Of a stretch of 28,155 bases of DNA, positions 5,104 through 28,155 are shown in pieces. Made by a program: the position numbers and the translations under genes. The DNA is from Psammoneis japonica. Its lineage: Eukaryota. A model generated the notes under the pieces. The model worked only from the letters and a program-made list of their open reading frames with translations. It had not been told where the DNA came from and did not search any database. How positions within the stretch are numbered: the first letter of the stretch is position 1; every line of letters starts with the position of its first letter. The stretch spans positions 501,719-529,873 of the forward strand of contig QPGO01000040.1 in NCBI GenBank assembly GCA_008632985.1, written 5' to 3'.

Positions 5104-5760
5104 TTATCTTCGTTTCAATTCTCTCCGTTTTGGTTTGCGTCGTTTTCGTTTCGGCTTTTCTTCTTGTTGTTCGTTCTCTTGAAAGTATTCGTGCAGCATT
5201 CTGTCAATCTCCTTGTCACGCCCGGTGCGGTATCCCGCCATGAATTCGGACAGACATTCCGTCGCTAGCTTCATTTGTTCTCCCGCCCACCGTTTCAAGT
5301 CTTCTCCCGAGTGAATTCCAGTCTCGTCTTGCACCTTGTTCTTCCAATACGTTCCTTCCTCTTGAACAAAATCTAAGTTTTTACTGACATTCTCCTTGAC
5401 TGATTTCTTTTTCTGCTCGATTGTTTCAATCAACTCTTCCTCGTCTTTTTGTATTGTTCCTTCTTGTTCCTTTTCCTTTGGAACCAAAAAACCTTCCCAC
5501 GTGCTCTTGTAGTCGGTCCACGTCCACGACGCAACTAATTTCCATTCGTTCAAAGTGCGTGGCATTCGATGAGGCCCGTCCTCATTCTTTGATTTTGGAT
5601 TGGGCAGAGGCTGGCCAAAAATGGCAGACTCTTTTCGTTTCTGGTCAACTGTGAGATGGAAATTTCGGAGAAACGCCATTCGCAGCGGTACATTACGACA
5701 TTGAAAACAGTTCTGCAAGACGAAAAATCGAGTCGCCATGGACCTTTGGTGGCATGACAT
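5104..5760 (-). CDS. Hypothetical protein ('gene X'), possibly organelle-targeted
   Basis: 218-aa ORF with normal composition, Arg/Phe-rich N-terminus, charged helical core and basic tail; convergent with the deaminase gene. The start may be the ATG at 5739. Confidence 0.7.
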   Translation of the reverse strand: MSCHQRSMATRFFVLQNCFQCRNVPLRMAFLRNFHLTVDQKRKESAIFGQPLPNPKSKNEDGPHRMPRTLNEWKLVASWTWTDYKSTWEGFLVPKEKEQEGTIQKDEEELIETIEQKKKSVKENVSKNLDFVQEEGTYWKNKVQDETGIHSGEDLKRWAGEQMKLATECLSEFMAGYRTGRDKEIDRMLHEYFQENEQQEEKPKRKRRKPKRRELKRR

Positions 5761-6203
5761 TTTATAAAGGTGGCGGGCAATTCATACAACAAACGATTTG
5801 CGGACGGCACTTGAGATAAGTATCGTCATGTTTCTTGCTGCTTGAGTGTGAGAGTGATGAGTGATTTGCGATTGGGGTCTGGCGGCCTGCGCGCTGCGCG
5901 CAACCACTATTCTCCGTTCGCCCATCATCCGCCACGCACCACGCCACGCACCGTCGACCTCTCGTCGCCTCTCATCACTCGCTTCTCGCTCGCTCCACCC
6001 CAGCGACCTCATTCACGGTATAATACGCGTTACTTCGTCGTCATAATATATCGCGTTACTGTCGATAACAGTAACTGTCAACTGTTTGCGTTCACAGTCT
6101 GGACTCGTGAGATCACAGTGTTTGTGAAATACTGTGCTGAATTCGCCGAGACAAGAGTCGATTTTTGAGTGCAGCCGCGAATCCAGTTTGACATTGCTGC
6201 AGA

Positions 6204-7370
6204 ATGGAAGACGATGCATCTGCTAGAATCCTCGGCACAATGGCACGAGCTGCAGGAGAGTCAGAGGAGGTGTTGTCATCAAGGCGACATGTCGAAATTG
6301 AACCAGGGTGTGAAGGATACGTCAATGCCAGAAAAATTCTCGTGCGCTCGAAGGATTTAGTTGAATTGCCAGCCGAGATCGGCATGTTGCACCGACTGGT
6401 GGAGTTAGACTTGGGGTATTGCCAAAATCTCCAGCGACTGCCTCCAGAGATTGGGCGATTGACGAACCTCGAAGTGCTGCATCTTTTTGAATGTCGCAAT
6501 CTCGTCACCTTGCCAGATGAGATTGGACGATTGACAAACTTGAGAGAGTTGCGATTGGATGGTTGTGTCAAGCTCGAACGACTGCCTCTTAGTTTGAATC
6601 GGCTCTCACGTCTTGAGGTGTTGGACTTAAGTTCGTGTAAAAGTCTCGTGGGGTTGCCAAGTGACATTTTCCATTTGACAAAATTGAAAAAATTGTCCAT
6701 GTGGAATTGCGAATCTCTCACTCGGCTTCCCCCGGGAATTGGACAGTTGCATCAATTGGAAGACCTCGACCTTTCCGGTTGCGAAAGCCTCACTGAGATT
6801 CCTGTTGAGATTGGTCAGCTGTCGAACCTGAAAACTCTCTCCTTGCGTGACTTGTCGCATGGCGCACGAGAATTCTTACAAAACATTGGCACAAGCAGTC
6901 TGTCGAATTTGACAAAGTTGGGTTTGAGCAGTTGTCTTGATCTCGAAGAGCTACCTCCCGCAGTGGGATCATTTCAGAAGCTAGAACAGCTGAATGTCTG
7001 GAGCTGTAGGAATTTGACTCAAATTGGCAAAGAGGTTCTGTCGCTGCCGAGACTCAAACATCTCAGTTTGTGGGGTTGTGCTGCTCTCACTGTTTCTCCC
7101 GAAGAAATCGGCAAGGCTTCGTATTCTCTTGAAAGTGTGCAGATGCCCCACTCTGCATCCCAAGATGAAATGGACTGCTACTGCGATATGAACAAGGCCG
7201 GACGACACCTGCTGCGTCGAGAAAATGGAGTTCCTGATGCTCTCTGGCCGCACGTCTTGGCGGGTCGTCGAAGCGACGAGAACTTTATATTTTGGATCTT
7301 GAAGCACAACCCGAACTTTGTAAAGAAACGAGTCAAAAAAAGAGGAACCAAGAGAGCTCGCGAGGAATAG
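6204..7370 (+). CDS. Leucine-rich repeat protein (24-aa LxxLxLxxCxxLxxLPxxIG repeats), copy A
   Basis: About 10 LRRs of the plant-NLR-like type, a C-terminal NKAGRHLL...LWPHVL...FIFWILKHNP motif and an NLS-like KKRVKKRGTKRAR. Confidence 0.9.
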   Translation: MEDDASARILGTMARAAGESEEVLSSRRHVEIEPGCEGYVNARKILVRSKDLVELPAEIGMLHRLVELDLGYCQNLQRLPPEIGRLTNLEVLHLFECRNLVTLPDEIGRLTNLRELRLDGCVKLERLPLSLNRLSRLEVLDLSSCKSLVGLPSDIFHLTKLKKLSMWNCESLTRLPPGIGQLHQLEDLDLSGCESLTEIPVEIGQLSNLKTLSLRDLSHGAREFLQNIGTSSLSNLTKLGLSSCLDLEELPPAVGSFQKLEQLNVWSCRNLTQIGKEVLSLPRLKHLSLWGCAALTVSPEEIGKASYSLESVQMPHSASQDEMDCYCDMNKAGRHLLRRENGVPDALWPHVLAGRRSDENFIFWILKHNPNFVKKRVKKRGTKRAREE

Positions 7371-8153
7371 TGAGTTTTGTGTGGACGTTTTGTAAACATG
7401 TTGTGGAGCGGTCTCAATTCGATGACGGTAGATGCTGTGTACTGTAGACTAATGCAATGTAGCTTTCTATGAACGCGCTTGCTAGACCCAATGACTATCT
7501 CATTGATGCCATTAGAATGTAGCCATACCCTTTGTATTACGGTAGACCAATATCTTAATGCAACCAGCTTTACACGCGAAAGAGAGTGGCGACAATTCAA
7601 GAATCTGCATGTGGATTCTCAGTGAAACAGTTGTCGTATGGTATTGCCATTCAAAAGAAGCCATACGCTAGTTGAAACGCTTGTTACATGTCTTTACATA
7701 AGGACCTCTCATTGTCTCGTCGGCCCGAAAGCCACGTTGCGTTTCACGACGAGCATGTGTCACCGCAGGGACGTTGTTTCACGGTAAGAATGGCTCGGAA
7801 ATGATCCAGTTAAGAGCACTACAGCCGCAAAATCTCTACCGCGTAAGTTGTGTAAATGCACAGCGATAGTACCGTAGATGCACGTTACTATCCTTTTCGT
7901 TTCTTATGGACGTGATTCAGGTTGTAGCTATGCGCCTTCTTTAAATAATAACAGATACCTTAGCAAAGCAGACAGCTACTTACTTGAAAACTTCCTTTTC
8001 CTTCTACCTTGTGCCGCATCTTCCGACGATTGGGCAGATCATATATGCAGACGTATCCAAGCGTGCATACGGTATGTGAGTTGTCGAGCGTATTTTTGTC
8101 TCAATTCGTGATGAAAGCGCCGCTGTTAAACTCGTTTGATTGGCGCAGAGAAC

Positions 8154-8521
8154 TGACCAGCCACACATGTATATACTGGTAATATGCTTGATTCAAGGTT
8201 TGTCTTTTGCCCTGTCATTGTAATATTCTCCGTAAAGGAACGGATTATCAGTTTCCAAAAGGACTTTTGAGTGGGCTCGTGTGTCGATTCCATCTTTCAT
8301 AATTCCAAGTCAAACACGGAGCTCATGATGACTTCAAGAGCTCATTGGAGTGTGATACTGCCTTTTTTTCTCTGTATTTCGGTCGACATTGCATCCTCGA
8401 CCTCCAACAATGCCAATGGATACACATTTACTCACTTGATGGCCGAGCCAGCCGGCCACTCCAGACACGTCGTCACGATACTGCACATTGAGCCATCTCA
8501 AGTAGCTTCGACCCAGTCCTC
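8154..8521. repeat. ~368-bp segment repeated at 9396-9759 across the N gap (probable second haplotype or assembly overlap)
   Basis: Near-identical copies with a few SNPs/indels; the second copy starts directly after the Ns. Confidence 0.85.
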
Positions 8522-9363: not shown

Positions 9364-9395
9364 NNNNNNNNNNNNNNNNNNNNNNNNNNNNNNNN
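9364..9395. other. Assembly gap
   Basis: Run of N. Confidence 1.
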
Positions 9396-10340
9396 TGACC
9401 AGCCACACATGTATATACTGGTAATATGCTTGATTCAAGGTTTGTCTTTTGCCCTGTCATTGTAATATTCTCCGTAAAGGAACGGATTATCAGTTTCCAA
9501 AAGGACTTTTGAGTGGGCTCGTGTGTCGATTCCATCTTTCATAATCCCAAGTCAAACACGGAGCTCATGATGACTTGAAGAGCTCATTGGAGTGTGATAC
9601 TGCCTTTTTTCTCTGTATTTCGGTCGACATTGCATCCTCGACCTCCAACAATGCCAATGGATACACATTTACTCACTTGATGGCCGAGCCAGCCGCCACT
9701 CCAGACACGTCGTCACGATACTGCACAATGAGCCATCAAGTAGCTTCGACCCAGTCCTCAAACTAAAATCCAAAAGTCCATGGCTTCTTGTTTTGCGATT
9801 TTGCTTGGTTACTATACAGCAAAGACGACTGACTGTAGTTCAGCCTGAGTCGGCTCACAGTCAACCACAGGAAGCGCAAGCGGTTGTTTGGGATGTTCGT
9901 CATTTGAGCGACAAAGAAAAATGCAAAACGGCCTCCGTTAAATTCTTCAAACGAAAATTTACCATCCAAATCAAACTGCTCCAGCTGTTGAAAACTCATT
10001 TCATCCAACGTTGAGGACAGTTCGACCAGTTGTGCGACACTATTCGAGTTTCCATTTTTGATGAGCTTGTTTCACACGAAAGCATCCCGTCATCAAACTT
10101 GTGCCAAATACACATTGGAAGTGGTGCTCTACCATTAGTTCGAACATTACTCAAATGCACATTCTTCATTCTTGTCTCTGTGCTGCGCGTCATCGTCGCA
10201 AGCTAAGCGAGAACACAGCGAAAACGTTTGCGCAGAGCGTACATCGAGCTGATGATCCTTGCTTCGGCTTCTGAGCGTGTTGATGTCTTCGATCCCGTCT
10301 TCGTTTTGGGTGCCGTGGTTTCATTTGAACGATGACCTCA

Positions 10341-10422
10341 CAGTACGTTCGCTGTCATAACATATCGTCACTGTCGACAACAGGTTCACCATCAAATAAT
10401 GTTTGCGTTCATCGTTCTGACT
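10341..10422 (+). promoter_or_regulatory. Copy of the LRR upstream segment (paralogues at ~6030-6105 and ~25615-25692)
   Basis: Shared gtcataa...ctgtcga(t/c)aacag...tgtttgcgttca...ct(g)gact block upstream of all three LRR copies. Confidence 0.55.
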
Positions 10423-10429
10423 GCCCATG

Positions 10430-12860
10430 GCCCATGTCTGATCGCACTGCCTGCGTTTTTCTTTTTTGCCTGAGACGGTTCGCAGCGCGCTCCGGACAAG
10501 CGCACAGACCATCACCACGGTGAATGACTAACTCCATTCCATGCCATGCATTGCCAGCAGCCAATGGAAATTGAACGGAAGTTGCCGATGACGACAGTGG
10601 ACTTCATCGCGCAACTGTTTCCTGATGAACATCACCATTTCGAGTCCCATTGCAACAGCAGGCTTGTTGCACTGCCTCATGTGTGGGGGTGCGAAGGGGC
10701 CATCAGCGAAGTGGCAGCGAGCCAAGAAGTGTGCAAATGCGCCGCTCCAGCTGTTCGTGGTGTCACCACGTTGCATGCAGACAATGTGTCAACTCACCAT
10801 TTGCCAGATTTTGGGCACCTGCTGAGTCAAAGCTGGTGGAAATGCAAGAAAGGGTCAATGGGTGACTGATTTGTGGTGGTGTGAGACACGTTGCTCCTCA
10901 TCTTTTGGTGGAGAAAGCTCGATCGCAAGTCAGAGACCGCGTGAATGTCATGCAAATGTCGTTTTTGTGCACAATTTGGTCCACGTGTGGCTGGACACAT
11001 CAGGTTGGTTTTGTGTCAGAGCTGCCAGTGAGATGGAGAGGGAGCTGCTGTGGCGGTGTGATCTTCAAGAAAGCAAAGGATGTTGGCCCCAGATTTTCCT
11101 GTGTGCAGAGCAACAACTTGGATCCCAGAAATTTTTGAGGCTGCAGTGAAGCAACTCTGATGGCTCAGTCACTTTGATTTTGTTGATTTGGCAAGAGTCT
11201 GGTTGGAAAGAAAAAACACACAGGATGAAGTTTGCTCACAAGATTCTTGGTGTGTGATCAAAGAAAAAACACTTTCAAACAATGTCGACAGCATTGCATT
11301 GATGCCAAGATGCCAACATCCTGTGGGATGACAAAACCAAATGAGTTGAGCTTCCACACCTTGCTTTTGTCCAGTGCTCTGGATTGCTGACCTCAAAGAC
11401 ACAAATGTCAAATCTGAAAAGGAAAAAGAGTGAGTTGCTTGCAACAAGTTTTTGTGGGTTGCTTTGCCTTTGTGCAGCATTGAAGAAGTCAACCACAGTT
11501 GTCAGGAGGCCAGCCATGGAATGGAAAGCAGAACACAGCCATGAAATGGGTCGTGTTGATGTCATCATGATCCAATGTCTTGTTGGTGTTGAGAAAGGGT
11601 CAAAAACAAAAAAACAAACATTTTCATCACACCGCTGGTCATGAGTCTTGAATCCCACTTAACCCATTTGACTCAAAATTTTCGGAAGATTTGGCTGGAC
11701 TTTGATCTCCTGCTAGAGACACAACACAAATGCCCAAGGTGCGGGCATTTTTGGTCTCCAACACCTCAAATCAATGTCTTGTGAGATGGCAAAATCACAA
11801 GCATGCATTGTTTGTGGTGTTGCATGTTTGACAACAGAGCTGAGACTTTTCAAGGAGCTCCCTCATCACACATGGGAAAGCATGAGGGGCAAATTTCAGT
11901 GGCTCTGTGACCAGTGCAGCTCTCTGCATGTCACCCCAAAACGTTGCTGGGAATTTCTTGCATTGGCGTGATGCCAGTTGGCTGGAAATGTGTTTTGGCA
12001 AAACATGGGGGGGGGGTTGTGACCACATGCTGAAGCAAAGCATTGGGCCTCACAGCTGCAGAGCTGTCAGAGGAGACACCACGGTTTCACTCTAAAATTG
12101 AACCAGAGCATGAAGGGGGAGAGTTGCCAGCCAAAATGGGTGCGCTGTGCCAGCTGGCAGAGTTGAGCTTGAAAAATTGTGCAAATCTCCAGCAATTGCC
12201 TCCAGCAAACAGACAATTGACAAGACTCAAAGCAAGTGTAAAATCCCACAGATTGCTGTGGGCCAACCGAGTTGTTGCCTGATGAGATTCGACGAGTGGC
12301 AGCTCAAGGGCATTTTTGGGCTGGATGGCCATGTCAGTCGTCTTGAGTGGTTGCCTCACAGTGCTTGCACCAGCTCTTGTGTCTCAAAGTGTTGGGCTTG
12401 ACATCTCATGCAAAAGTCTCAAGGGGCTGCCAAATGATGTCTTCCTTTTGAGAAGTTTGAAATGTCTGATCTTGTCGAGTGTGGAGCTTCACATCTCCTG
12501 CCTTGTCGCTTGGCCACCGTCTGGAGCTGGTGGGGGGTAGATTTTGCATCAGTTGGAAGTCCTTCACCTTTCACACTGCAATGGTCTCACTAAAATTCAT
12601 GTTGAGATTGGTGTGCTTTCCAAGCTGAAAACTCTCTTGTGCTTGTGTGAAGTGTCGCACTGCACACGAGATTTCTTGCAAAACACGTTTCTGCTTGTGT
12701 GCCTGAGCATGCTGGGCTTTTGTTGTGGTCCCGAAGAGCTACCTCCTGCAATGCGATCACTTAAAAACCTGGAGGTCGTGCGGATGTGGAGCACTGTGCA
12801 CAATTGACTCAAATCAGCAAAGAGGCACTGTTGCTGCCAAGTCTCAAACTTCTCAGTCGA
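10430..12860. other. CpG/TpA-depleted hypermutated domain 1
   Basis: About 9 TpA seen in 2.4 kb; ORFs lack Tyr and are Cys/His-rich. Confidence 0.85.
12050..12860 (+). pseudogene. Degenerate, 3'-truncated LRR paralogue, copy B
   Basis: Fragments ELPAKMGALCQLAELSLKNCANLQQLPP, CKSLKGLPNDVF, HQLEVLHLSHCNGLTKIHVEIG and EELPPAMRSLKNLE align to 6204-7370, with frameshifts. Confidence 0.85.
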
Positions 12861-13133
12861 ACAGACGATCTGCGCGTTGAAGTCATGACGTCACACTAGC
12901 AACGCTCGGGACTGGAACTCGTGACCGATGAGACAGCAAACTTCGCGCGAAAAAACAGCTGAGCGCTTTTCGAAGCGGGACTTCAGCACTTCGCACTTCG
13001 CACAAGATTTCCAGATTGACATCATGATGTTGCATGCGCGTGATCACGTGATCACTCACAAATCTTGCACACCGCAAGCCGTAAGAACCAAGAAACCGAA
13101 CACAAAACAAAACCAGAGAGTATCCGAGAGAGA

Positions 13134-16928: not shown

Positions 16929-17939
16929 CTGAGGCTTTCCTCTAGACACACAGCACCATGTCATTCATAAAGCTTTCTACTCTAGACACACGCCTGTATT
17001 ATCACTGACAACAAAGGTTGCCACTGCTAATGAGCTTCCTCAGATGATTGGATGGTGGTGTTCTATGGATGCACATTAGGAAATGTGGCTGAATCGATAC
17101 AGTTGAAGCTGAGACCAAAAACTGTTTTTCAGTGATAAGTACTTGTAAACCTAAACCTGTGAATTCAACACTGCCATCACAGTAACACAAATGGCCTTTC
17201 TCAACAATAAAACTCGCAAACGTTGCGTTTCGGGTTTAGGGCTTTCTATTGTAGCCTTTGGAACAAGGACTCAGAACTGTGTCTTTGTAAATGGAGTGGC
17301 ACTCCATAAAAACATTCAGTTGTCTGCTTTGGCTTCAGAACAACCTGCAATCCACACCCTTGCATCTGGGCCTTTGGGTGTGGTGGCAGGGCAACTGGGA
17401 AAAAATGAGATGCCTTCCAGCCCTGGGTGGAAAGAAGTTGTCAAAAACAACCACACACCACCACCACACAACTTGCAAAAAACACATCATGTTGTTCCAT
17501 GTGGAACATGGTGGCCATGTCAAGAAGATTTTGAAGTTTGCTTTGAAATGAAATGTGGGTTTGAAGACACAACATTTGGAGCCAGCTGGAAATGGCTGCT
17601 GAGGTGCTGGGTCAGCTTCCATTGGAACATTTGGTGTGGAGCCCAGATTCCAAAGTCAATCTTTGGCATCACACACAGCTGGTCCACTGAGCCCAAGCTT
17701 CCCTGCAACTGCTGTTGCTGCAGCTGGTGCAACTGACTTTGTGGCGGGAGTTTAAAACCAACAGCTTGGGGGCACCCACCTGAGTCCCAGTGCTGTGCTG
17801 AGCTTCCCAAAGCTGTGGCTGAGCCCAGAACTGGGCCACTGGAAGCAAAAGAGTGGGTGGGGCAGAAGCTGGGCCATCTCAGCTCTGGCAAAGTGCCGCT
17901 GGCATTGAAACAACAAGAGGCTGCAACAACAACAGCTCA

Positions 17940-18480
17940 TTGACACTGGAGTTTGCTGCTGGCATTGCTCCAAAGTGCTCCTGCCCACCGGTGTGCAGCA
18001 GGCAGTTGCTCTCTCCTTGCACATGCTTTTCTTGTCCCCTTTGTTTCAATCAACTTCTCCTTGTCTCTCTGCATTGTTGCTGCTTCGTTTTTTTTTCTTT
18101 GGAGCCAAGAAGCTCTTGTGGTTGGTCCATGTCCATGACACAACTGGCTTTCATTCATTGAAAGCATGCAGTGTTTGATGAGGTGTGCACTTGGCTGGCC
18201 AAAAAGTGGCAAACTCTTTTTGTTCCTGGGTGGCCTGACTGTGAGATGGAAGTTTTGTTTTCTGAGAAAAGCCATTCCTCACAGAGGTGCATCACAGCAC
18301 TGAAACACACCATTTCTGCAAGATGAGTGGAGTTGTTGCAGTTGGCCTTTGGTTGCTTGCCATTGTGAGTGTGGCACCACCGGGAGTGATGCTTGCAACA
18401 CAAAATGATTTGTGAATGGCACTTGTTGTTCAAAAGCATCATCATGGTCAATCACTTTTTTTCTTGCAGCTTGTGCACAG
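17940..18480 (-). pseudogene. Hypermutated partial copy of gene X and its upstream region (5250-5845)
   Basis: Collinear nucleotide alignment; ORF remnants MAFLRKQNFHLTV...LFGQP and EKLIET. Confidence 0.85.
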
Positions 18481-18975
18481 CTTGTCATTTGTGTCATTGT
18501 GGCAGCCACACTCTCAGGCAACTCCAACATGAGAATCACACATGCCTTGCTGATGTGGTTGGTGTGGCAATTGCTCACCATTTTGCATGAAAATGACAGT
18601 GGATGGGAAATCTGAAAAGGCAACGGCAAGTGACAATCAGACACCACAAAGCTGCAAAGCACATTTGTCAAAGCTGCATGTTTCCAAGCAAAGTTCCAGA
18701 AGAGCCTTTTCCAGTCAAATGGGATTCTTGGGCACCACTCATCATTTTTCATTCAGTGAGGTGATTTCTCCTGAGGTGGGAAATTGTGGCTCCAATTTTG
18801 TGCAGAAAATTTGCAGAAAGGAAGGGACATTGCAAAGTCAATGAACAGACAACAGATCAACATCACAAACTGGCATTCAGAACTCATCTCTTGCACTGCA
18901 TGAGGGTGACAGCCAACTGGGTCATGACTCAAGTGAGTCATGTGTGTCAGCAAAACACACTCCAGTGGCATGTCG

Positions 18976-18999
18976 ACACACACACACACACACACACAC
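18976..18999. repeat. (AC)12 microsatellite
   Basis: Direct observation. Confidence 0.95.
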
Positions 19000-20069
19000 T
19001 GGAAAGAAATCAGGGCACCCAGACTGTGGAGGATCTGGCAGAATGCCAAAGGTTGATGATGACAACAACATGAAAGACTCCCCAAGCACTGGGACTGTGA
19101 CAACATGAGTGTCAGCAGAAGAGAACAAGAGGCAGATCTCAGAGAGATCTGCCGGCCCATCCAAGAGGTCTGGCCATCATCCACACACAGTCTGTCCATC
19201 ATGCAACAGGCAGACTGACGGGATCTCCTTGGATCTTCCTCCACTGACTTTTGTTTTGACCAGCAACAAGTCATCATCACTGTTCTGGCACATGTCAGAT
19301 TGTGGCACTTTTTCCCAATGGGCCCAGAACGCCCACTGTCCCAGAAATCACTGCAATGATGACATGTGCTGATGCAACCTCAGTGTCAATGCTTTGGACT
19401 TTGCTGGGGCGGGGGGCATGATGAGCCACCTCAGGACTCTTCTCCAGATGAAGCACTTCCAAAAGATGCCATCACACCCATGGACAACACCTTCAGCAGC
19501 TTTTGTGATCAGCTCACCCATCTTCAATTTCCCGTCCATGGACAATGACCACCACCTTCTCCATCACACCTGCATGGCACCTGTGTTCAAGATCAAGGCA
19601 GCACCAAACAAGGCCACAAAGTGACTGCATTTGGTCTGCACAGGGGATCATCTGTTTGACAGCTGCCCTGCTCTCAAGAACAACCCACACATCAAGGGCT
19701 TCCACACCCACTTTTGTCAGGTCTTGAAATGAGAGGCTGCAAAATGTGCACCTGCATTTGTTGGCAGCCCAAGAAGTTTGCCTGCTGGACAGAATGGGCA
19801 AACACTCGTGAAATCTGAGAACTCATTGTTGGATTTTCAACCAGGCTGTCACAGCCAGTTGTGGACACCTGCAATGCTGCCCACTCTCTCTTCACTCAGA
19901 CACCACAATGACAGCTGGGGGGCATTGAAGAGTGGTTGCCAGCTCCAACACCAACCAGTGCAAAACCTCTTTCTCCAGTTGACACTTCTGCATCCACCAC
20001 TCCTGCAACTTTGTTGACAACTTTCAACATCAATGTGTCAGCACCTGATGACACTTTTGTGCCACTGCA

Positions 20070-21232
20070 TGCCACACGTCAGCTCAGGGAGGGATCAAGA
20101 GCAGGGGAGGGCAGAGGAAACTGTCAAGCCCTTTTTGGAACCATCCCCACATTGGAGTGCTCAGATTGTGATGATGCTCTTGGCCTCACCACCATGTGTG
20201 CACTCAATTTCATGTCAGCAAGGTTGACGAAGCCTTTGCCACATGGCACAAAACCTGTTTTGGAGTTGACCTTGATTGGAACGTGGAGAGTTGCCTGTCA
20301 TGTGTGCACATCCAGGTCACCCTGAGGAGTCTGGAATTTTGACTGAGTGCAAAGCTCTTGTTCTCCAACACCACCCATGACAAGTGTGTCTGTGCATCCA
20401 CCCATGAGGGCAAGTGCACTCTCCTCCAGTGGCAAGTTGAAGACTTCTCAATCATGTGCTGTCCAGAGCATCTTCTTGGGCCATTGTTGTGTGCACATGT
20501 CATTTGTTGCCTTGGCGCTGGGGGCACACAATTGCAACACTCTCCAAGTTTGCCTTGTCACCTGCTCCAACTCAGTTTGCTGCTTTGGCAGACATTGCAA
20601 AGTGTCTTTGTTGCACCAAGTGTTGGGGTGTCAGCTGCAAGAAATCTTGGGAGGATCTTTTGCCACCTGCCTGTCTGTTTGAGCAGCTTGAGGTTGACCC
20701 ATCTTTGTCTGCTTTCCCTTCTGCAAAGTTGCTCATGCAGCTCATGGCTTTCTTGGATGCTGTTTGTGGCAATGACCTTCAGAACCACCAGTCCACTGCT
20801 GCAGGGCATGGATGCACTTTGGCAGGCACTGCAATCTCCTGCCATTGCAAGATGCAGCCAGCTGCTGTGGGTGACTCTGCTGAGGCTGATTTTGTGCCGC
20901 TGACACGCCACCACCAAGCATGTCCTGCATTCATGTTCAGTTCTTCAAGAGCTCTTTTTTCCCAGCCTGACCCCACTCCACTGTTTGTTGATGATGAGCT
21001 GCCTGTCATCAAGATCATCAGCAACCATGTTCCTGCTGAGCACTTGCAGCACCACACTGACACTCAGCAGATGTTGGCCACAATTCGGGGTTGGAAGGAA
21101 GATGGTCGGCACTCTGCCACAAGACACATCATTCCTGGCTGTGTCAGCGCAAGTGATGATCTTGCCAAGGCTCTTGGGTCGATGCTGAATCCCTGGTGCC
21201 ATGCTTGTTGCCTCATGGGACACTTCCATTGA
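20070..21232 (+). pseudogene. Copia RT/RNase H remnant
   Basis: FSNTTHDKCVC...LLQWQVEDFSI (YxDD-equivalent), ATLSKF, AFLDAVCGNDLQNHQST...AEADFV, QPDPTPLFVD, ASDDLAKALG, LMGH. Confidence 0.8.
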
Positions 21233-21615
21233 GACACAATGTCTCCATTTGTTTGGCATTTGGCACCTCCTGCTGCTGAACAGCACCTTGTGCATTTGTT
21301 TTGTTGTCCATTTGTTCTTTGGTCATCCAGCCTGCAATGTGTTTTTCACTGGTCAGCTCTGACTTTCCTGCTTTCCTTTTTGTTCTGTCTGTGATCTGTG
21401 CTGTCTCTGGTTTGGACATGCTGGATCAGGGAAGGGTGTCAGTTGACTGGCACTGCCACACATGGGTGACAGGAAATGACTTGTGTGGCACTGAGTCCAT
21501 GCAGAAAATGTGCAGAAAGGAGGGGGTGTTACAAAACTCAATGAACGGACCAACCTGACAAACAACCAGTGTTTGGAACTTGAATCTTGTGCACAATGAG
21601 CACGCAGCATGTTTG

Positions 21616-24600
21616 TGTTGGAACATCAGGGCAAGAGGCAGCTTTGGGAGTGTGTGATGTGCTGACAACAAACACTGACTTGGTGAATTTTCTGTTTGTT
21701 GCTCTTGACAAATCGCAGGGCTTGTTCCCATTTTTTAGCTTCTGCACCTGGTTGACATGACCACAGTGGCAAAAAAGGCAAAAGATGTGTGTGTGTGTGT
21801 GTGTGTGTGCAATCCATGTGGTGAGTTGAGGTCAGTGAGACCAAGTGACAACCAGCAATCTCTGGAGGGCCTTGCTGCAGGGCAGCTGGAGGGTCTGCCA
21901 AGGGAGGGTGCAGCAAGGATGTGTTGGACTGGAACACTGGTTGAGGACACAACAGCTGAGCATGGAAGCACAAAAGATTAAAAGGAGTGGGCACATGATG
22001 CCATTGCTGAGTTGGGCAGACAGGTGGGCAGTTGCATGGAAATGCAAGAAAGACAAGTGAGTGTGTGGGAAGAGTGTCCAGGCCAGAGATGCAGGTGTTG
22101 GCATCTCTGAGGCAAGAGAACAGGCCAGAGGAACCAGAACATCCACTGGGCATGACTGCATCAGAGAATGACAGGGCAATCTGGGGGAAACAGTGTGGTC
22201 ACTGCATGAAACAGGGTGCAATCCATGAGATGCAGAAGGTGAAGGCATTCAATGTGATTGTGGGACAGTGTGCAAAAGCTGTCCATCACAAGCTTGGAGT
22301 GACAGAGTTTGCAAAGGTCACAAAGGAATGCAGTGTGATGGCACACCATTGGAGGACACAATCAATTTGATCCTGTTTGATGCAGCCAAATGAGAGAGTG
22401 TGCCCGCATGTCCAGGTGGTCCTCAAGGCGTGGAAATGACTGGCGCTCATTTGACAGCATGGAGAAGTGCTTTGAGACCACCACAGCTGGTTTGCAAGCA
22501 CTGCAGAGATGGTGGAAGGGTCATGTTGCAGAGTTGTCCCCAAGGAAATCACCAAGAAAGAAAAAGGGTGCAGGTTGGATGCTGACATCCATTGGGGGGC
22601 TGAATTTATGAATCCTCCTGGCAGCTGGCTGACAAGCAGACAATGGTCAGAGAAAAAGTTTGTGAGTGCAAGCACATGAACTCATTTGTGATCCAATTCA
22701 TCACATGTCACACCTGTTCATGACAAGTTGGTGTGATTTGAAGTGAGCAAATGTCCTTTGCTTTCCAACAAATGTCCCCAAGTTTTCCAACTAAGAAGAG
22801 GTCAAACCAACAAGTTTGGCACAAATCAGCAAGTTGATGCCCACACAAAATGTTCAATTGGACAGTTGCCATCTAAAGTGCAGCTTCTGCAGTTGAGTGT
22901 CGCCATGGAATCTCACATTGAAAAATGAAAACAATGCCACTCACAGGTTTTTATCTGCCAAACCACCATCAACTCCAGTTTGCAGATCTTGGTGCAGCTG
23001 GCCATGTGGTCTCCCTCAGCACCCAAGTTCTCAAGTCCTTCACCTCCCTGCTTTCCATGGCTGGCTGCTGTTGTTCAACACAAATCTCCCCATCAACCAA
23101 GTCATTCACTTGTGATCATGTCTCATTTGATCTCCTTGACCGGCTCTTCAAAGAACTTGTTGGCTCTTGGCGGCCATGTCCCTTGCTTTTCCTTGGCATC
23201 TTGCATCATCTCCCTGTGCCTTCCTTTGCTGGGCTCAAGCTGCTTGGTGCACACTTTCTCTTTTCTGCAACAATCTCCTTTCTGTGAGCCCCTTGTCAGC
23301 AATGCTCTCAAGCTCATTCACAACTTCTGTCAGAGCTGAGAGTTGCTCCTTCATCTTGTCATGCCCTTGTGTCATTGGAAATGGCACAATGCTGTGCTGC
23401 TTGCATCAGCTCAAATCTTGCTCAACATCAACACCCAGCAACACTTGCAGCTGATCTTGTTTTTGCCATGCAGCATGCCTGTTTTGTCCAACTCAATTGC
23501 TTTGCACCAAACATGAGTGTGATGCTCACAAGTGCTTTTTCTTTGGACATGATCTCTCATCTTGATGATGTCTCTGCCAACCTTTTCATCATTGGCTGTC
23601 CACTTCCTCAGGCTGGTGTCTGTCTCTGAGCCACAGTTGCAATGTTTGACAATTGCCTTTTGTGTTGTACATGTTTGCCTGCACTTGCTGTGGTGGCCAG
23701 CACTGCTTTGCACACTGTTGCAAGCTGGCTTTCCCTTTTTGTGTTTTCTCTTGACTTGAAAAAGCAGAATGGATTTAAAATTGCACCCCTGAGTTTCAAA
23801 AACATTTTGATCATTTGTGACTGTGTGCGTGAATGACACAGTCTGTGAATCGTTCACAAAGAGAGTCGCCACCAGAGGCAATTCTGTGTTCCCTGTGCTG
23901 CACTGTGATTGGTCAGAAGAAATGACCCCCCTCTTTTTCATCACTGGCTGAGTCTTCAGAATCACTGGAAGAAGGGGCCTGATGCTTGTTCCTCTGTGCC
24001 GCCATTCTTGAACTGAGTCAAATGGGAGTCACCATGGTGCTCAGGAGATTTCTCCACACACCACCATTGGGCATGCAAACCTCACCCCGTTGATGTGGTG
24101 AAAACAAAGAGTGCAACAGTTGACAGGGTGAATTTTGTGCAGAACTCTCATGGAAAGGACAAAAAATTGCCGTCGAAGTCATTTCACACAAAGAGGAGAC
24201 CAAGTGGGTTTTTGAGGGAAATCACCATGTTGACATTGCACTTGATGGACTTCACAAAGCAAGAAAAAGTTGACAACAAGAGAAATCACACAGAAGTGTC
24301 ACAGAAAAGACAAACACACTGCAATGTTGGTTGCTTCACACAATGGACGAGTGCCGGATTCACCGTCGCCTTGCTCTGGATGTTGCCCTGACAACCAAGC
24401 ATGTCAATGTCCAATGTGAAAAACTTTGGTGAATGCACAAATTTCATTTGACATTTTCAAGAAACTGCCAAGTGGAAATGTTCACAGCAACAATCAAATG
24501 CAACTTTGCAGATTTGAACAAAATGATGCCGGACAGTCACGTGGCGACTGTTGTCACATGAGCCAAGATGTGACAAAAAATGAAATGATTTGGTCATGGG

Positions 24601-25410
24601 GCAACAGCCACGTGCTTGCTGAATGAAAATGTGGAGAACAAACAAAAAAGGTCAACTGCCAACAATCAAGCATCATGTGTTTCAATCAGAGATGGGCTGA
24701 TGCAACAAATCTGAGAGCGCGCTCACTGGGCCAAAGTGCCAAACACAATGCCCTGTGACTCATGTGCCCTTTCTCGCCTCTCTGATGACACCCAGAACAA
24801 GGAAAGGAACAAGTCATTGGTGGCTCTGCTGATGGAAGGCACCAAGGGACATTGCTTTGTTTTGAAAGACCTGCACAGGCAGCTCACATTTGGGGTTGAC
24901 AACAGCTGGGAGGCACTGCTGCAGGTGTTGAACACGTGTTGTGCCAACAAGAAAACCCTGGGACGCAAGTTTTGCAGAAGGCAAGAAGAAGCAGCTGAGG
25001 TGCTGGAAAAGGTGGCAAGATGGGGCATGCTGAGAAGAACTGCCCTTTGCTCAAAGAAGGTGATGGCTGGCAACGACTCGTCAGCTGCATCAGATGACTT
25101 GGGACACGAGAATGTCGGTGGAGCAGCAGCCGACATGGTGTTGGGTGGCATGATTTCCAACTGTCATCCACCCAGGACAGGCACACATGAGGCCAATCAA
25201 TTGATGGCTCATGTGAAGGAGTGTGTTGGAATGTCAGGGTGAGAGGCAGTTGAAGAAGAACAGACAGACAGTGTTGAAGTGTGCGACATGCTGAGAACAA
25301 GTCAATGGCGCGTGGTGAATTTGCGTTCTTTGTTGCTCTCACGAGGCTTGTTCCCACTTTTTAGCTTCCGCACCCAGTGAACACGGCAAGAGCAGTAAAA
25401 ATGACAAGAC
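21616..25410 (+). mobile_element. Degenerate LTR element 2 (gag-only remnant), apparently inserted in the 3' LTR of element 1 and itself interrupted
   Basis: LTR-like direct repeats starting TGTTGGAA at 21616 and 25224 (alignable for ~170-190 bp); PPT-like gaaggagtg at 25215-25223; gag-like AIWGKQ...AFNVIVGQC...KL (22150-22370) and ALLMEG...LKDLHRQLTFGVDN...LQVL (24800-24940). LTR 3' ends and TSD are unresolved. Confidence 0.65.
21786..21809. repeat. (TG)12 microsatellite
   Basis: Direct observation. Confidence 0.95.
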
Positions 25411-25614
25411 TGGGCGCAAACCAGTCGGGAAGCCGCATGCGCAAAGCTCCAACTAACATGCAGTCAGCCCGCCGTCCAGTTCGCATGTCAATTCGTCTGG
25501 CCTTCCTCCGTGCAAAATACTCTGTTGTTCAATCCAAATCGGCAAAATAAAATCGACAACACAGAAAACATGAAACAAACCATTTTTGACATCGAGCGAC
25601 TCACAAGGCAGCGC

Positions 25615-28155
25615 ACTGTACGTTCGCTGTCATAACACGCCGTCACTGTCGACAACAGTCACCATCAAATGTTTGCGTTCATCGTCTGACTCGTGAGATC
25701 TTTATTTTTTTGTGAAAGACGGTGCGCATCCAGTTCGACATTGCTTCACAATGGACGACGATGCATCTGCTAGAATCCGGAGTGCAATGGTACGAGCTAC
25801 AGATCTGTCAGAGAAACATTTTTCATTGTGGGTTCGTTTCGAAAATGAACCAGAACACGAAGGATTCGCCAATGCCAGAGAAATTCGTGCGCAGCATTGC
25901 CTTCGGTTGGTTGAATTGCCAGCCGAGATCGGCATGTTGCACCGACTGGTGGAGTTGAACTTGAGGTGTTGTGTAAATCTCCAGCGACTGCCTCCAGAAA
26001 TTGGGCGATTGACAAAACTCGAAGTGTTGAACCTTTCATGTTGCAGTAGACTGACCGAGTTGCCTGATGAAATTGGACGATTGACAAGCTTGAAGGAATT
26101 GTCATTGTCTTGTTGCGACAAGCTTGAACGACTGCCTCGTAGTTTGCATCGGCTCTTCCGTCTTGAGGTGTTGAACTTGTCAGAATGTGGAAGTCTCGTG
26201 GGGTTTGCCAAGTGACATTTTCCGTTTAAGAAGTTTGAAAAGGTTTTTTGTCNTGTTGCAGATCTCTCACTCGGCTGCCCCCGGGAATTGGACAGTTGCA
26301 TCAATTGGAAGACCTCGACCTTTGTCATTGCAACGGTCTCACTGAAATTCCTGTTGAGATTGGTCAGCTGTTGAAGCTGAAAACTCTCTCTTTGTATGGC
26401 TTGTTGCATTGCACACTACAAGAATTCTTTCAAAACATTGGCACAAGCAGTTTCTTGAATCTGACAAACTTGGATTTGTGCGGTTGTCGTGGTCTTGAAG
26501 AGCTGCCTCCTGCATTGGGATCACTTCGAAACCTAGAGGGGCTGAGTTTGAAGGGCTGTAAGCAATTGACTCAAGTTAGCAAAGAAGTTCTAGTGCTGCC
26601 GTGTCTCAAAAGTCTAAGCTTGTGGCGTTGTTTTGCGCTCACTGTTTCGCCCAAAGAAATCGGCGAGGCTTCGTATTCGGTTGAAAGTGTTCAAATGCCC
26701 ACCAATGAGTCTCAAGGTGAAATGGACTGCTACTGTGAAATGAACAAGGCCGGACGACACCTGCTGCGTCGAGAAAGTGGAGTTCCTGTTGCTCTCTGGC
26801 CGCACGTCTTGGCGGGTCGCCGAAGCGACGAGAACTTTATATTTTGGTTCTTGAAGCACAACCCGAACTTTGTAAAGAAACGAGTCAAAATAAGAGGAAC
26901 CAAGAGAGCTTGCGAGGAATAGTTTGTTCTATGTTGATTTCTTTTAAACACACAGCGGTCTCAATTCGACTACTTGTGGAATAGCACAATGTAAGCTTTC
27001 TATGAACGCGCTTGCTCTAGACCCAATGACTATCCAATTGATGCCATTCAGATTGTAGCTGTGCCCTTTCTATTCAACCAATGTCTTACTCAATGAAACA
27101 CCAGCTTTCCTCGTAAAAGACATCGCGACGATTCAAGAATCTGCAGCTGGATTCTCTGTGGAAGCAGTTGTCGTATGGTATCGCCATCCAACAGAAGCCC
27201 TAGTAGGGCACAATAGTAGAAATGCTTGTTACAGGTCTATCGCACCTTCCTCTCATTGTCTCGTCGTCCCGAAAGCCACGTTGCGTTTCCCGACGAGCAT
27301 GTATCACCGCAGCGACGTTTCACGACACGAAAATGATCTATTTCAGAGCAACATAGCCGCAGAATCACTAGTGCGTAAGTTGTGTAAATGCACAGCGATA
27401 GTACCTTAGATGCACGTTACTATCCTTTTAGTTCTTTTTGACGCGATTCAGATTGTATCTATGCGCCTTCTTACATATGACAGATACTTTAGCAAAGCAG
27501 AGAGCTACTTACTTGGAAACTCCCCTTTCCTTCAATCTTGTGCCGCATCTTTCGATGATTGGGCAAATCATATATGCAGACGTATCCAATGTGCATACAG
27601 TTACGTGAGATGTCGAGAGCGTCTTCTTTTGTCAAAATTTGGAGTACCTCTTCGCCAATTCGTGATGAAAGCTGCTGTGAAACTCGTTTGATTGGCGCAG
27701 AGAAATGACCAGACACACGCGCATATACTGGTAATGTGCTTGATCCGTGCTTTGTTTTGTGCCATTTTCTCGTAATATTCTCCGTAAAGGAAGGGATCGA
27801 CAGTTTCCAAAAGGACTCGCGAGGGCTCGGGTTGAGATTCCAACCTTAATATTTCTAAGCCAGACAAGTGATGAAATAAAGATAACATTGGGAGTGCGCT
27901 TCTTCCTTTTTTCTCTGGATTTCTGGCAAATTGTATCCTCGTCCTCGAACAAGTCGAATGGATACACATTTACTCGCTTGATGGCCGAGCCAACTGCCAC
28001 CCAGACACGTCGTCACGATACAAAGACATTGAGCCGTCAAGTAGCTTCGACCAGTCCTCAAATTAAAATCCAAAAATCCATGGCTTCTTGTTTTGCGATT
28101 TTGCATATATGCAGCAAAGACGATTGGCCATCGTTCAACCTGAATCGCCTTACAG
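25615..28155 (+). repeat. Segmental duplicate of ~6030-8521 plus 9760-9860
   Basis: Collinear similarity through the upstream region, LRR CDS and >1.2 kb downstream. Confidence 0.9.
25751..26922 (+). CDS. LRR protein copy C; net -1 frameshift at 26200-26255 next to an N (likely assembly error)
   Basis: Full-length paralogue of 6204-7370 (MDDDASARI...KRACEE); the indels fall in T homopolymers. Confidence 0.75.

What the first reader, a model, noticed from the sequence alone, without database searches (positions are those of the whole stretch)
17310..25400. Repeat-associated hypermutation that erases both CpG and TpA, converting them to TpG/CpA: a candidate undescribed RIP-like genome-defence system
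Seen: about 8 kb with only around a dozen TpA (none found in ~3.8 kb, 17755-21529), few CpG and heavy TG/CA excess, while the flanking genes carry TpA and CpG on nearly every line. ORFs here lack Tyr and are rich in Cys/His. The domain coincides with nested Copia remnants. Established: CG methylation of diatom TEs (DNMT5-type) plus 5mC deamination explains CpG->TpG/CpA. Fungal RIP creates TpA, which is the opposite direction. Near-complete TpA loss therefore needs a second process (A->G/T->C at TpA). Inference, candidate mechanisms: (i) a TadA-like DNA adenine deaminase, since TadA-derived editors prefer TA; (ii) mismatch-repair-recruited Pol-eta-like error-prone synthesis (A->G at WA) around T:G mismatches; (iii) a mutagenic thymine modification such as 5hmU/5fU. 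I do not know of a description of this process but cannot search the literature.
Basis: partly seen in the sequence, partly recalled or inferred. Interest (0 to 1): 0.92.

Follow-up and report, generated by a model that had tools for sequence, protein, structure and literature searches.

The report
TpA-erasing hypermutation of diatom repeats
Silenced repeat DNA in this diatom-like genome has had nearly every TA and CG step rewritten to TG or CA; the TA-erasing part matches a hypermutation process so far reported from a single alga, and related diatom retrotransposons from environmental DNA carry it too.

Summary
Window 17308-25361 has 10 TpA where 328 are expected and 62 CpG where 448 are expected. 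TG and CA gain (697) almost exactly what TA and CG lose (704).

Polarised comparisons show the direction TA>TG/CA and CG>TG/CA. They use in-window paralogs, conserved Tyr and Arg columns of a Copia fragment, and 30 related Copia copies from metagenomes.

TpA loss and CpG loss are two separate processes. Across copies TpA loss runs from 0 to 81% and is uncorrelated with CpG loss. It hits both strands equally and prefers T-A-pyrimidine; the few TAs that survive in the window are Y-TA-R.

This is not RIP. It matches the TpA-only A:T>G:C hypermutation of silent integrated viruses seen in Bigelowiella natans mutation-accumulation lines (bioRxiv, April 2026). So it is not undescribed, but my searches found no report of it in diatoms, on retrotransposons, or combined with CpG decay.

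The enzyme is unknown. DNA adenine deamination is the leading guess.

The parts
17308..25361 (.). Main erased domain: TpA and CpG converted to TpG/CpA. It holds repetitive, mostly unidentifiable DNA.
   Evidence: TA 10 against 328 expected, CG 62 against 448 expected; summed contig depth 70-1100 against about 52-57 in the flanks.
20220..21229 (+). Ty1/Copia pol remnant (end of RT plus the RNase H/C-terminal region). It has no Tyr, and its Arg residues are replaced by Cys, His, Gln or Trp.
   Evidence: E down to 4e-27 to C-termini of 1000-2500 aa proteins; those hits carry RVT_2, gag_pre-integrs and SH3_retrovirus; tblastn hits the window only here; 0 of 9 conserved Tyr and 0 of 11 conserved Arg columns are kept.
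18041..18326 (+). Erased copy of the sequence at 5421-5723.
   Evidence: 66% identity. TA 5 of 5 became TG (3) or CA (2). CG 14 of 14 were lost (TG 7, CA 4, other 3). TG 17 of 17 and CA 15 of 17 were kept.
5421..5723 (+). Unmutated relative of 18041-18326, lying between the dCMP deaminase gene and LRR copy c1. It serves as the polarising reference.
10530..12896 (.). Second erased domain. The TA-free zone spans 10530-12896; its CpG-poor core spans about 10985-12500.
10339..12857 (+). LRR gene paralog c2, a decayed pseudogene. It carries about 1.5 kb of extra sequence (10423-12120) that includes high-copy repeats.
   Evidence: 66% identity to c3; on its own lineage CG 14 of 15 and TA 3 of 3 were lost; depth 2500 in the bin 10652-11277.
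6034..8521 (+). LRR gene copy c1 plus its downstream sequence. The ORF 6204-7367 is intact and CpG is normal. TpA is low only in the LRR part.
25614..28155 (+). LRR gene copy c3 plus its downstream sequence, next to the main domain. TpA o/e is 0.13-0.25 in its first about 900 bp and 0.87 further on.
24000..25361 (.). Right margin of the main domain, where CpG recovers (7, 9 and 20 per 500 bp) while TpA stays absent.
21649..21781 (+). Erased copy of a short repeat. A less-erased copy lies at 25278-25407 and still holds CG and TA.

Best explanation
Two independent, context-specific transition processes have run almost to completion on silenced repeat DNA in a diatom-like nuclear genome. The DNA is a Copia remnant, other repeats and a dead LRR-gene paralog.

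1. CpG>TpG/CpA. This is the expected decay of methylated CpG. Methylation is inferred, not shown.
2. A locally targeted, DNA-level A:T>G:C hypermutation confined to TpA, giving TpG or CpA depending on which strand's adenine is hit.

What is shown:
- The direction of change.
- TpA specificity.
- Equal action on both strands.
- A preference for W-W-T-A-Y.
- All-or-little behaviour from copy to copy.
- Independence from CpG loss.
- Reach somewhat beyond the CpG-poor core.

What is inferred:
- An enzyme is directed to silent chromatin. The most likely candidate is a DNA adenine deaminase (A>I, read as G). The rival is an enzyme that modifies thymine at TpA.
- The process serves genome defence, as proposed for Bigelowiella natans.
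For: Mass balance: the TA+CG deficit of 704 matches the TG+CA excess of 697.

Polarised in-window pairs:
- 5421-5723 against 18041-18326: TA 5 of 5 became TG or CA. CG 14 of 14 were lost. TG 17 of 17 and CA 15 of 17 were kept.
- c2 lineage against c1=c3: CG 14 of 15 and TA 3 of 3 were lost.

Protein level, 20 Copia relatives:
- 0 of 9 conserved Tyr columns are kept (C 3, H 1, F 3, I 1, A 1).
- 0 of 11 conserved Arg columns are kept (C 3, H 3, Q 1, W 1, K 1, M 1, T 1).

Relatives are not TA-free: 78 of 80 metagenome Copia loci have whole-locus TpA o/e of 0.40 or more.

Metagenome Copia family, 30 non-redundant copies:
- TpA loss ranges 0-81% and CpG loss 6-49%. Spearman rho is -0.27, p 0.14.
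- L024 lost 27 of 35 TA but 4 of 41 CG. L069 lost 34 of 42 TA but 5 of 47 CG.
- In the 8 most affected copies, A>G at TpA is 234 of 982, against 2.1-5.7% in other contexts.
- TAY 166 of 543 against TAR 68 of 439, p 3e-8.
- Sense strand 122 of 490, antisense 112 of 492.
- TA>TG/CA 246 of 537, against TG/CA>TA 28 of 2012.
- W is favoured at -2 and -3, and there is no effect at +2 or +3.

Window survivors: 12 of 19 remaining TAs are Y-TA-R, against 15.7% in the flanks (p 4e-6). This is the mirror of the TAY preference.

The sequence is reproduced by contigs of a public run at single-copy depth.

Precedent: in B. natans MA lines, 230 of 231 mutations in two integrated viral regions were A>G or T>C, all of them on TpA (Results and Discussion read).
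Against: - There are no de novo mutation data, methylome, chromatin map or expression data for this organism. No genome is held, so genome-wide windows and a proteome survey were impossible.
- Run X1 may be the sample the window was assembled from, so it is weak independent support.
- The 8 'hypermutated' copies were picked after the fact by their TpA loss. Their high TpA rate is therefore partly by construction. The contrasts by flanking base and by strand are not.
- Consensus polarisation can err where several copies changed in parallel.
- The c2 branch is long. It also carries 60 A:T>G:C changes at 316 A/T sites in other inferred contexts. A broader transition excess in old copies is not excluded.
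- Only about 1 kb of the 8 kb can be named as a transposon.
- Nothing here tells adenine deamination from thymine modification. TpA is its own complement.
Confidence: 0.8

Rival explanations
1. The signature is the same, but thymine is the base attacked. Thymine at TpA is oxidised (5hmU or 5fU, by a TET/JBP-type enzyme) in silent chromatin, and the product mispairs with G. That gives T>C on either strand.
For: The TpA step is its own complement. So A>G in T-A-Y is the same event as T>C in R-T-A, and every result here fits this reading equally well. That 5hmU in dinoflagellates favours TpA is recalled, not checked.
Against: A search for 'diatom' with '5-hydroxymethyluracil' returned 15 papers, 12 listed. 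Every listed title concerns dinoflagellates (listing only). No TET/JBP survey was possible because no genome is held.
Confidence: 0.2
2. Error-prone repair synthesis. A Pol-eta-like polymerase is recruited to T:G mismatches from 5mC deamination and writes A>G at WA.
For: Both signatures coexist in the window.
Against: - ApA is hit at 43 of 1532 (2.8%), against 234 of 982 (23.8%) at TpA. A WA signature would include ApA.
- TpA loss is uncorrelated with CpG loss (rho -0.27).
- TpA loss reaches 77-81% in copies with only 10-11% CpG loss (L024, L069).
- The TA-free zone extends past the CpG-poor core.
Confidence: 0.05
3. RNA-level editing (ADAR-like) of retrotransposon RNA before reverse transcription, so that edited copies are inserted.
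For: The 5' T preference resembles the 5' U preference of ADARs, as the preprint's Discussion notes.
Against: - There is no strand bias: sense 122 of 490 against antisense 112 of 492.
- The 3' preference is for pyrimidine, not G.
- Sequences that are not retrotransposed are also erased: LRR paralog c2 and the copy of 5421-5723.
- ADARs being confined to animals is recalled, not checked.
Confidence: 0.03
4. One process that attacks both self-complementary pyrimidine-purine steps (CpG and TpA) at once.
For: In the window the two are lost together, and both end as TG or CA.
Against: - Across 30 related copies the two losses are uncorrelated.
- Relatives in the protein library include Tyr-less, Arg-keeping forms (P0150, P0193). 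They also include Arg-poor, Tyr-keeping forms such as P0132.
- The edges of the two depletions differ in the window.
Confidence: 0.04
5. Artefact or intrinsic composition. Either a sequencing or assembly error at modified bases, or sequence that never had TA because of selection or origin.
For: The window comes from one assembly with N gaps. X1 may be the same sample.
Against: - Contigs of a public run reproduce the domain at single-copy depth with 0-6 differences per contig.
- Independently assembled metagenome contigs show the same signature.
- Relatives have normal TA and use Tyr.
- The conversions destroy conserved residues.
Confidence: 0.03

Closest known systems
TpA-targeted hypermutation of integrated viral DNA in Bigelowiella natans (Mettrop et al., bioRxiv 10.64898/2026.01.13.699255, April 2026; outline, Results and Discussion read)
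   Same: - A>G/T>C confined to TpA, giving TpG and CpA on both strands.
- Confined to particular regions while neighbouring DNA is normal.
- Long-term footprint of TpA depletion with CpA+TpG gain in clusters.
- Reverse-transcriptase and DDE-endonuclease Pfam domains enriched among TpA-poor CDS.
- Enzyme unknown.
   Different: - A different lineage: diatom-like stramenopile here, chlorarachniophyte there.
- Targets here are an LTR-retrotransposon remnant, other repeats and a host gene paralog, not giant-virus or virophage inserts.
- Erasure is near total here (TpA o/e about 0.03). Their NCLDV region has Rho 0.45.
- CpG decay is superimposed here. A term search of the preprint's main text finds no 'CpG', 'diatom', 'trinucleotide' or 'flanking'.
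- No de novo events were observed here.
- The T-A-Y and upstream W preference is new information.
Repeat-induced point mutation (RIP) of ascomycete fungi
   Same: Heavy, localised transition hypermutation that kills repeats, and may leak into neighbouring genes.
   Different: - RIP makes C>T, mainly CpA>TpA, so it creates TpA and lowers G+C (recalled knowledge). Here TpA is destroyed and G+C is unchanged.
- Duplication as such does not trigger the process here.
CpG decay of methylated transposons by 5-methylcytosine deamination
   Same: CpG>TpG/CpA. It accounts for roughly half of the TG/CA gain. It is seen at 6-49% in related copies, and residual CpGs differ between the window and X1.
   Different: It cannot remove TpA. 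Methylation of this locus was not measured.
Deaminase editing of retroelements (APOBEC on DNA, ADAR on RNA) and TadA/ADAT2-type adenine deaminases
   Same: Context-specific deamination used against mobile or foreign nucleic acid. TadA-derived editors preferring a 5' T/C and a 3' C around the target A is recalled, not checked.
   Different: - APOBEC gives C>T.
- ADAR acts on RNA and favours a 3' G.
- No deaminase has been linked to this process in any organism. The preprint offers only an ADAT2 homolog as a candidate.

Membership tests
TpA-targeted hypermutation (B. natans type) | Substitutions are A>G/T>C transitions at TpA, far above other contexts | tested here: met
   234 of 982 at TpA against 2.1-5.7% elsewhere. 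TA>TG/CA 246 of 537 against the reverse 28 of 2012. TA 8 of 8 lost to TG or CA in the window's own pairs.
TpA-targeted hypermutation (B. natans type) | Both strands are hit (TpG and CpA products) | tested here: met
   sense 122 of 490, antisense 112 of 492. TG excess 352, CA excess 345.
TpA-targeted hypermutation (B. natans type) | Confined to particular regions or copies; neighbouring DNA is normal | tested here: met
   sharp left edge at 17307/17308; 0-81% loss among copies of one family.
TpA-targeted hypermutation (B. natans type) | Targets are silent DNA of foreign origin | tested here: inconclusive
   A Copia remnant and repeats are present, but a host gene paralog is erased too. Expression and chromatin were not measurable. 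No listed run holding the stretch is on record as RNA.
TpA-targeted hypermutation (B. natans type) | De novo events at about 1e-7 to 1e-6 per site per generation in culture | not testable with these tools
   Needs mutation-accumulation lines.
Fungal RIP | C>T/G>A, mainly CpA>TpA, with a drop in G+C | tested here: not met
   TpA is destroyed, not made. G+C is 0.486 against 0.473 in the flanks.
Fungal RIP | Triggered by duplication, and all copies are hit | tested here: not met
   The duplicated downstream halves of c1 and c3 keep their TA (bins at 7501 and 27001, o/e 0.92 and 0.87) and show no TpA bias. The copy at 5421-5723 is untouched.
Methylated-CpG decay | CpG>TpG/CpA | tested here: met
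   22 of 28 lost CpGs became TG or CA. One search gives the overall CpG deficit.
Methylated-CpG decay | 5mC is present at the locus | not testable with these tools
   No methylome is available.
ADAR-type RNA hyperediting | A>G on the transcribed strand only, with a 3' G preference | tested here: not met
   no strand bias. TAG 17.6% and TAA 12.4%, against TAC 33.6% and TAT 27.8%.
Pol-eta WA signature | A>G at both TpA and ApA | tested here: not met
   ApA 2.8% against TpA 23.8%.
Ty1/Copia retrotransposon (for 20220-21229) | Homology to the RVT_2-type pol C-terminus | tested here: met
   No Pfam model hits the window's own translation directly.

The most novel reading that the evidence does not exclude
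Diatoms and chlorarachniophytes, and perhaps SAR protists at large, share an enzyme system directed at silent chromatin. It is most likely a DNA adenine deaminase reading W-W-T-A-Y. It erases TpA from transposons, integrated viruses and dead gene copies independently of cytosine methylation. It also leaks into neighbouring or paralogous LRR genes and speeds their divergence, much as RIP leakage does for fungal effector genes.
Probability: 0.3. Interest if true: 0.9.

Novelty: new member of a known kind. Interest (0 to 1): 0.78.

Why it matters
In what I found, a TpA-specific hypermutation of silent DNA has been reported once, eight months before this library's date. That report covers one alga and names no enzyme.

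Finding the same signature at saturation in a diatom-like genome, and copy by copy in a Copia family beside a pennate-diatom gene, has three consequences:
- It suggests the process is widespread in a major group of primary producers.
- It shows the process acts on retrotransposons and gene paralogs as well as on viruses.
- It separates the process cleanly from CpG-methylation decay.

The flanking-base preference (T-A-Y with upstream A/T, both strands) is a concrete fingerprint against which candidate deaminases or thymine-modifying enzymes can be tested.

There are practical consequences too:
- Such domains defeat homology-based repeat annotation; Pfam finds nothing here.
- They produce long TGA-only pseudo-ORFs rich in Cys and His.
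- A natural enzyme with this specificity would interest base-editing work.

Tried and rejected
- No whole genome is held, so genome-wide dinucleotide windows and a deaminase/TET/polymerase survey could not be done.
- Pfam on 14 domain ORFs and on six-frame read-through translations of 17300-25701 and 10400-12201 gave no transposon domain. The only hits were two chance-level ones.
- tblastn with 18 Copia polyproteins at E up to 5 found nothing convincing outside 20220-21229. 'Nested' Copia is therefore unproven.
- A putative LTR pair around 18.8 and 21.5 kb gave only a 51-bp match and was dropped.
The sources of the Tyr-less relatives (P0150, P0157, P0184, P0193, P0223, P0233, P0239, P0250, P0251) remain unknown.
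- No listed run holding the stretch is on record as RNA.
- Paralogous contigs of X1 could not be extracted, so the 916 laid pieces gave only unpolarised totals. These were A>G 166, T>C 178, C>T 143 and G>A 168, against 38-59 for each transversion.
- The tandem CMP/dCMP-deaminase gene at 3390-5010 was considered as a candidate enzyme and set aside. Its relatives carry the name dCMP deaminase in diatoms and crustaceans at 45-57% identity, and nothing ties it to the domain.
- Earlier findings of this scan: nothing for this genome or for look-alike stretches. The word search returned only phage and bacterial cases, none bearing on this finding.
- Literature searches found no description in diatoms. 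A term search of Maumus et al. 2009 (PMC2806351) found no 'TpA', 'dinucleotide' or 'hypermut'.

Full report
**1.

In 500-bp windows TpA falls from 10-37 per window in the flanks to 0-4 between 17501 and 25000. CpG o/e drops to 0.04-0.31, and TG and CA rise to 1.6-2.3 times expectation.

Exact counts for 17308-25361, with expectations from flank density:
- TpA 10, expected 328.
- CpG 62, expected 448.
- TG 960, expected 608.
- CA 918, expected 573.

What TA and CG lose (704) is what TG and CA gain (697). G+C is unchanged (0.486 against 0.473). The longest TA-free run is 17754-21529, 3776 bp.

ORFs in the domain hold 1 Tyr in 5152 residues, with Cys, His, Gln and Trp raised and Arg halved. Stops are almost only TGA: 437, against 12 TAA and 3 TAG.

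A second erased block at 10530-12896 was not in the finding (TA 8 against 96 expected; CG 49 against 132 expected). On three edges the TA-free zone is wider than the CpG-poor core: 10530-10985, about 12500-12896 and about 24000-25361.

**2. The sequence is real.**

One public run (coded X1; it may be the source sample) holds 85% of the sampled words of 16000-25999. Its contigs cover the domain at the same depth as the unique flanks, about 52-58. Differences per contig are 0 (18041-19098), 4 (19866-20707) and 6 (21149-21776).

Summed depth over much of the domain is 70-1100, and it reaches 2500 at 10652-11277. These stretches therefore have relatives elsewhere in that data set.

Of the 15 listed window-against-X1 differences inside the domain, 8 lie at a CpG in one of the two sequences: 7 pair CpG with TpG/CpA and one is CG against GG. 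One more pairs CpA in the window with TpA in the read, though that one lies near a contig end.

**3. What lies there.**

*Host.* The flanks carry ordinary genes: an M64-type peptidase, a tandem CMP/dCMP deaminase, LRR proteins, an alpha/beta hydrolase and a Tdp1-like ORF. Named homologs of the deaminase are diatoms and arthropods at 45-57% identity. Named homologs of the peptidase are diatoms only, at most 40%. The host is therefore diatom-like, without a close sequenced relative in that library.

*LRR triplication.* Self-comparison shows a triplicated unit:
- c1 at 6034-8521.
- c2 at 10339-12857.
- c3 at 25614-28155.

c1 and c3 are 79.5% identical. c2 is 66% identical to c3 and coincides with the second erased block.

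*Copia.* Inside the main domain only 20220-21229 (+) can be named. ORF 20441-21229 matches the C-termini of long proteins (E down to 4e-27) that carry RVT_2, gag_pre-integrs and SH3_retrovirus domains. tblastn with 18 such proteins hits nowhere else. Pfam finds nothing in any frame. 'Nested Copia remnants' is thus only partly borne out.

**4. Direction of change.**

(a) The stretch 5421-5723 has normal composition. Its relative at 18041-18326 lies in the domain. In their alignment:
- All 5 TA of the former are TG (3) or CA (2) in the latter.
- All 14 CG are lost (TG 7, CA 4, other 3).
- 17 of 17 TG and 15 of 17 CA are kept.

(b) Where c1 and c3 agree, c2 has lost 14 of 15 CG and 3 of 3 TA.

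(c) In columns where at least 60% of 20 Copia relatives have Tyr, the window has none: 0 of 9 (C 3, H 1, F 3, I 1, A 1). For Arg it is 0 of 11 (C 3, H 3, Q 1, W 1, K 1, M 1, T 1). TAY>TGY/CAY and CGN>TGN/CAN predict the Cys, His, Gln and Trp replacements.

(d) Relatives are not TA-free. 78 of 80 related Copia loci from metagenomes have whole-locus TpA o/e of 0.40 or more.

**5. Two separable processes.**

*The family used.* One Copia family among those loci gave 33 homologous segments. 30 remained after three near-identical ones were dropped: L020, L027 and L044. A CaM-kinase-type gene lies beside one copy (L012). Every organism name legible among its top hits is a diatom, 78-83% identical, most of them pennate: Amphora, Nitzschia, Fistulifera, Fragilaria, Pseudo-nitzschia.

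*Copy-by-copy losses.* Each copy was polarised against the 70% majority of the others:
- TpA loss ranges from 0% (L037, 0 of 30) to 81% (L069, 34 of 42).
- CpG loss ranges from 6% to 49%.
- The two are uncorrelated (Spearman rho -0.27, p 0.14).
- L024 lost 27 of 35 TA and 4 of 41 CG.

*Protein library.* Of 139 relatives, 9 have almost no Tyr, with Cys or His in the conserved Tyr columns. Some of these, such as P0150 and P0193, keep many of their Arg. Others, such as P0132, are Arg-poor but keep Tyr.

**6. Fingerprint of the TpA process.**

I pooled the 8 copies with at least 33% TpA loss. They were chosen after the fact, so the overall rate is partly by construction; the contrasts by context are not.

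- A>G at TpA is 234 of 982 (23.8%). At ApA it is 2.8%, at CpA 5.7% and at GpA 2.1%.
- The next base matters: TAC 33.6%, TAT 27.8%, TAG 17.6%, TAA 12.4%. TAY against TAR has odds ratio 2.4, p 3e-8.
- A or T is favoured at -2 and -3. Positions +2 and +3 have no effect.
- The strands are equal: sense 122 of 490, antisense 112 of 492.
- Direction is strongly one-way: TA>TG/CA 246 of 537, the reverse 28 of 2012.
- The other 21 copies (L007 left out as the most divergent) show the same bias weakly: TpA 5.5%, TAY against TAR p 4e-5.
- Selection cannot explain the preference. TAY in frame is Tyr, whose loss is damaging. Yet these are the most-hit sites.
- Mutated and intact TAs are interspersed in 7 of 8 copies; the runs test gives z from -1.9 to 0.8. 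L066 is the exception (z -4.3).

The window gives the mirror image. Of the 19 TAs left in the two blocks, 12 are Y-TA-R, the context poor on both strands. In the flanks 15.7% are Y-TA-R (p 4e-6). Only 1 survivor is R-TA-Y, against 30.8% in the flanks.

**7. Targeting.**

Duplication as such is not the trigger:
- The downstream halves of c1 and c3 are equally duplicated. They keep their TA (o/e 0.92 and 0.87 in the bins at 7501 and 27001) and show no TpA bias (A/G differences 11 of 82 at TpA against 35 of 312 elsewhere).
- The copy at 5421-5723 is untouched.

Position or chromatin state fits better. That remains an inference.

The LRR-coding parts of c1 and c3 still carry long ORFs (the c3 frame is interrupted around an N at 26253) and have normal CpG. 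They differ at TpA more than elsewhere (12 of 33 against 52 of 430, p 6e-4), and their TpA o/e is 0.13-0.5. This may be low-level leakage, or a property of LRR coding sequence. It is unresolved.

**8. Comparison with what is known.**

*RIP.* Fungal RIP is excluded on direction, on G+C and on trigger.

*Bigelowiella natans.* The match is the preprint on B. natans (found; outline, Results and Discussion read; term search).
- In 15 mutation-accumulation lines, 231 of 302 nuclear mutations fell in two integrated viral regions.
- 230 of those 231 were A>G or T>C, all of them on TpA.
- Rates were about 6e-7 per site per generation, and only some lines were affected.
- 124 TpA-poor, CpA+TpG-rich clusters were found.
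- Reverse-transcriptase and DDE-endonuclease domains were enriched among TpA-poor CDS.
- An ADAT2 homolog was offered as a candidate enzyme.
- Its main text contains no 'CpG', 'diatom', 'trinucleotide' or 'flanking'.

*Literature on diatoms.* Searches found no diatom report. The diatom Copia paper of 2009 has none of the terms.

*Verdict on novelty.* The process is therefore not undescribed. Its presence in diatoms, on retrotransposons and a gene paralog, at saturation, layered on CpG decay and with a defined flanking preference, is new as far as these searches reach.

**9. Mechanism.**

*Shown:* a DNA-level, both-strand, TpA-specific A:T>G:C process. It has a W-W-T-A-Y preference, acts region by region, and is independent of CpG decay.

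*Inferred:* an enzyme directed to silent chromatin.
- Adenine deamination to hypoxanthine is my first choice, at roughly 0.4 within the main reading.
- Thymine oxidation at TpA cannot be told apart from it with sequence alone.
- Pol-eta-type synthesis, RNA editing before reverse transcription and a single CG-plus-TA process are each contradicted by a test above.

**10. Limits.**

- There is no genome, methylome, chromatin or expression data for the host.
- X1 may not be independent of the assembly.
- The hypermutated group was picked after the fact.
- Consensus polarisation is imperfect.
- The c2 branch also carries many A:T>G:C changes in other inferred contexts (60 at 316 A/T sites).

Noticed in passing
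window 3390-5010 (+): A gene with two CMP/dCMP-deaminase zinc-binding domains in tandem. The internal repeat 3760-3920 against 4526-4686 is 71% identical. Relatives named dCMP deaminase occur in diatoms and, at 45-49% identity, in crustaceans and other animals. Nothing links it to the hypermutation.
   Followed up: partly
window 8154-8521 and 9396-9759: A 98% identical direct duplication on either side of the N gap at 9364-9395. It is probably an assembly duplication at a scaffold join. There is also a single N at 26253, inside LRR copy c3.
   Followed up: no
window 6030-7400 and 25610-26950: The apparently intact LRR genes c1 and c3 differ at TpA three times as often as in other contexts (12 of 33 against 52 of 430). 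Their duplicated downstream halves do not. This may be leakage of the TpA process into LRR genes, or a property of the coding sequence.
   Followed up: partly
window 18969-19009 and 21777-21818: Two (CA)n/(TG)n microsatellites inside the erased domain, on opposite strands. Each lies about 200-300 bp after a 51-bp repeat (18801-18850 and 21500-21550).
   Followed up: no
window 9951-10046 (+): Four Copia polyproteins give weak tblastn hits (E 0.55-4.5), all to the same RNase H-region position. This may be a tiny Copia scrap just upstream of c2, in DNA that still has normal CpG.
   Followed up: no
L024:1-1210; L069:1-2553: Metagenome Copia copies with TpA o/e of 0.15 and 0.12. L024 and the first 1 kb of L069 keep CpG (o/e 0.66-0.90). 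L069 beyond 1000 has lost both, like the window.
   Followed up: yes
L028:3501-5000; L063:1501-3000; L047:1-3500: Other metagenome contigs show block-wise TpA depletion (o/e 0.10-0.37) beside stretches with normal TpA. Some low-CpG blocks have normal TpA (L028 5501-6739, L047 6501-7480). The two marks therefore tile differently along a contig.
   Followed up: partly
proteins P0150, P0157, P0184, P0193, P0223, P0233, P0239, P0250, P0251: Public protein libraries hold predicted 'proteins' that are Tyr-less Copia fragments with Cys or His in the conserved Tyr columns. These are translated hypermutated copies. Their sources could not be looked up.
   Followed up: partly
window 10652-11277: Summed contig depth of about 2500 in X1, with loose ends at 10766, 10832, 10902 and 10995. 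These are short, very high-copy repeat pieces inside the extra 1.5 kb of c2.
   Followed up: no
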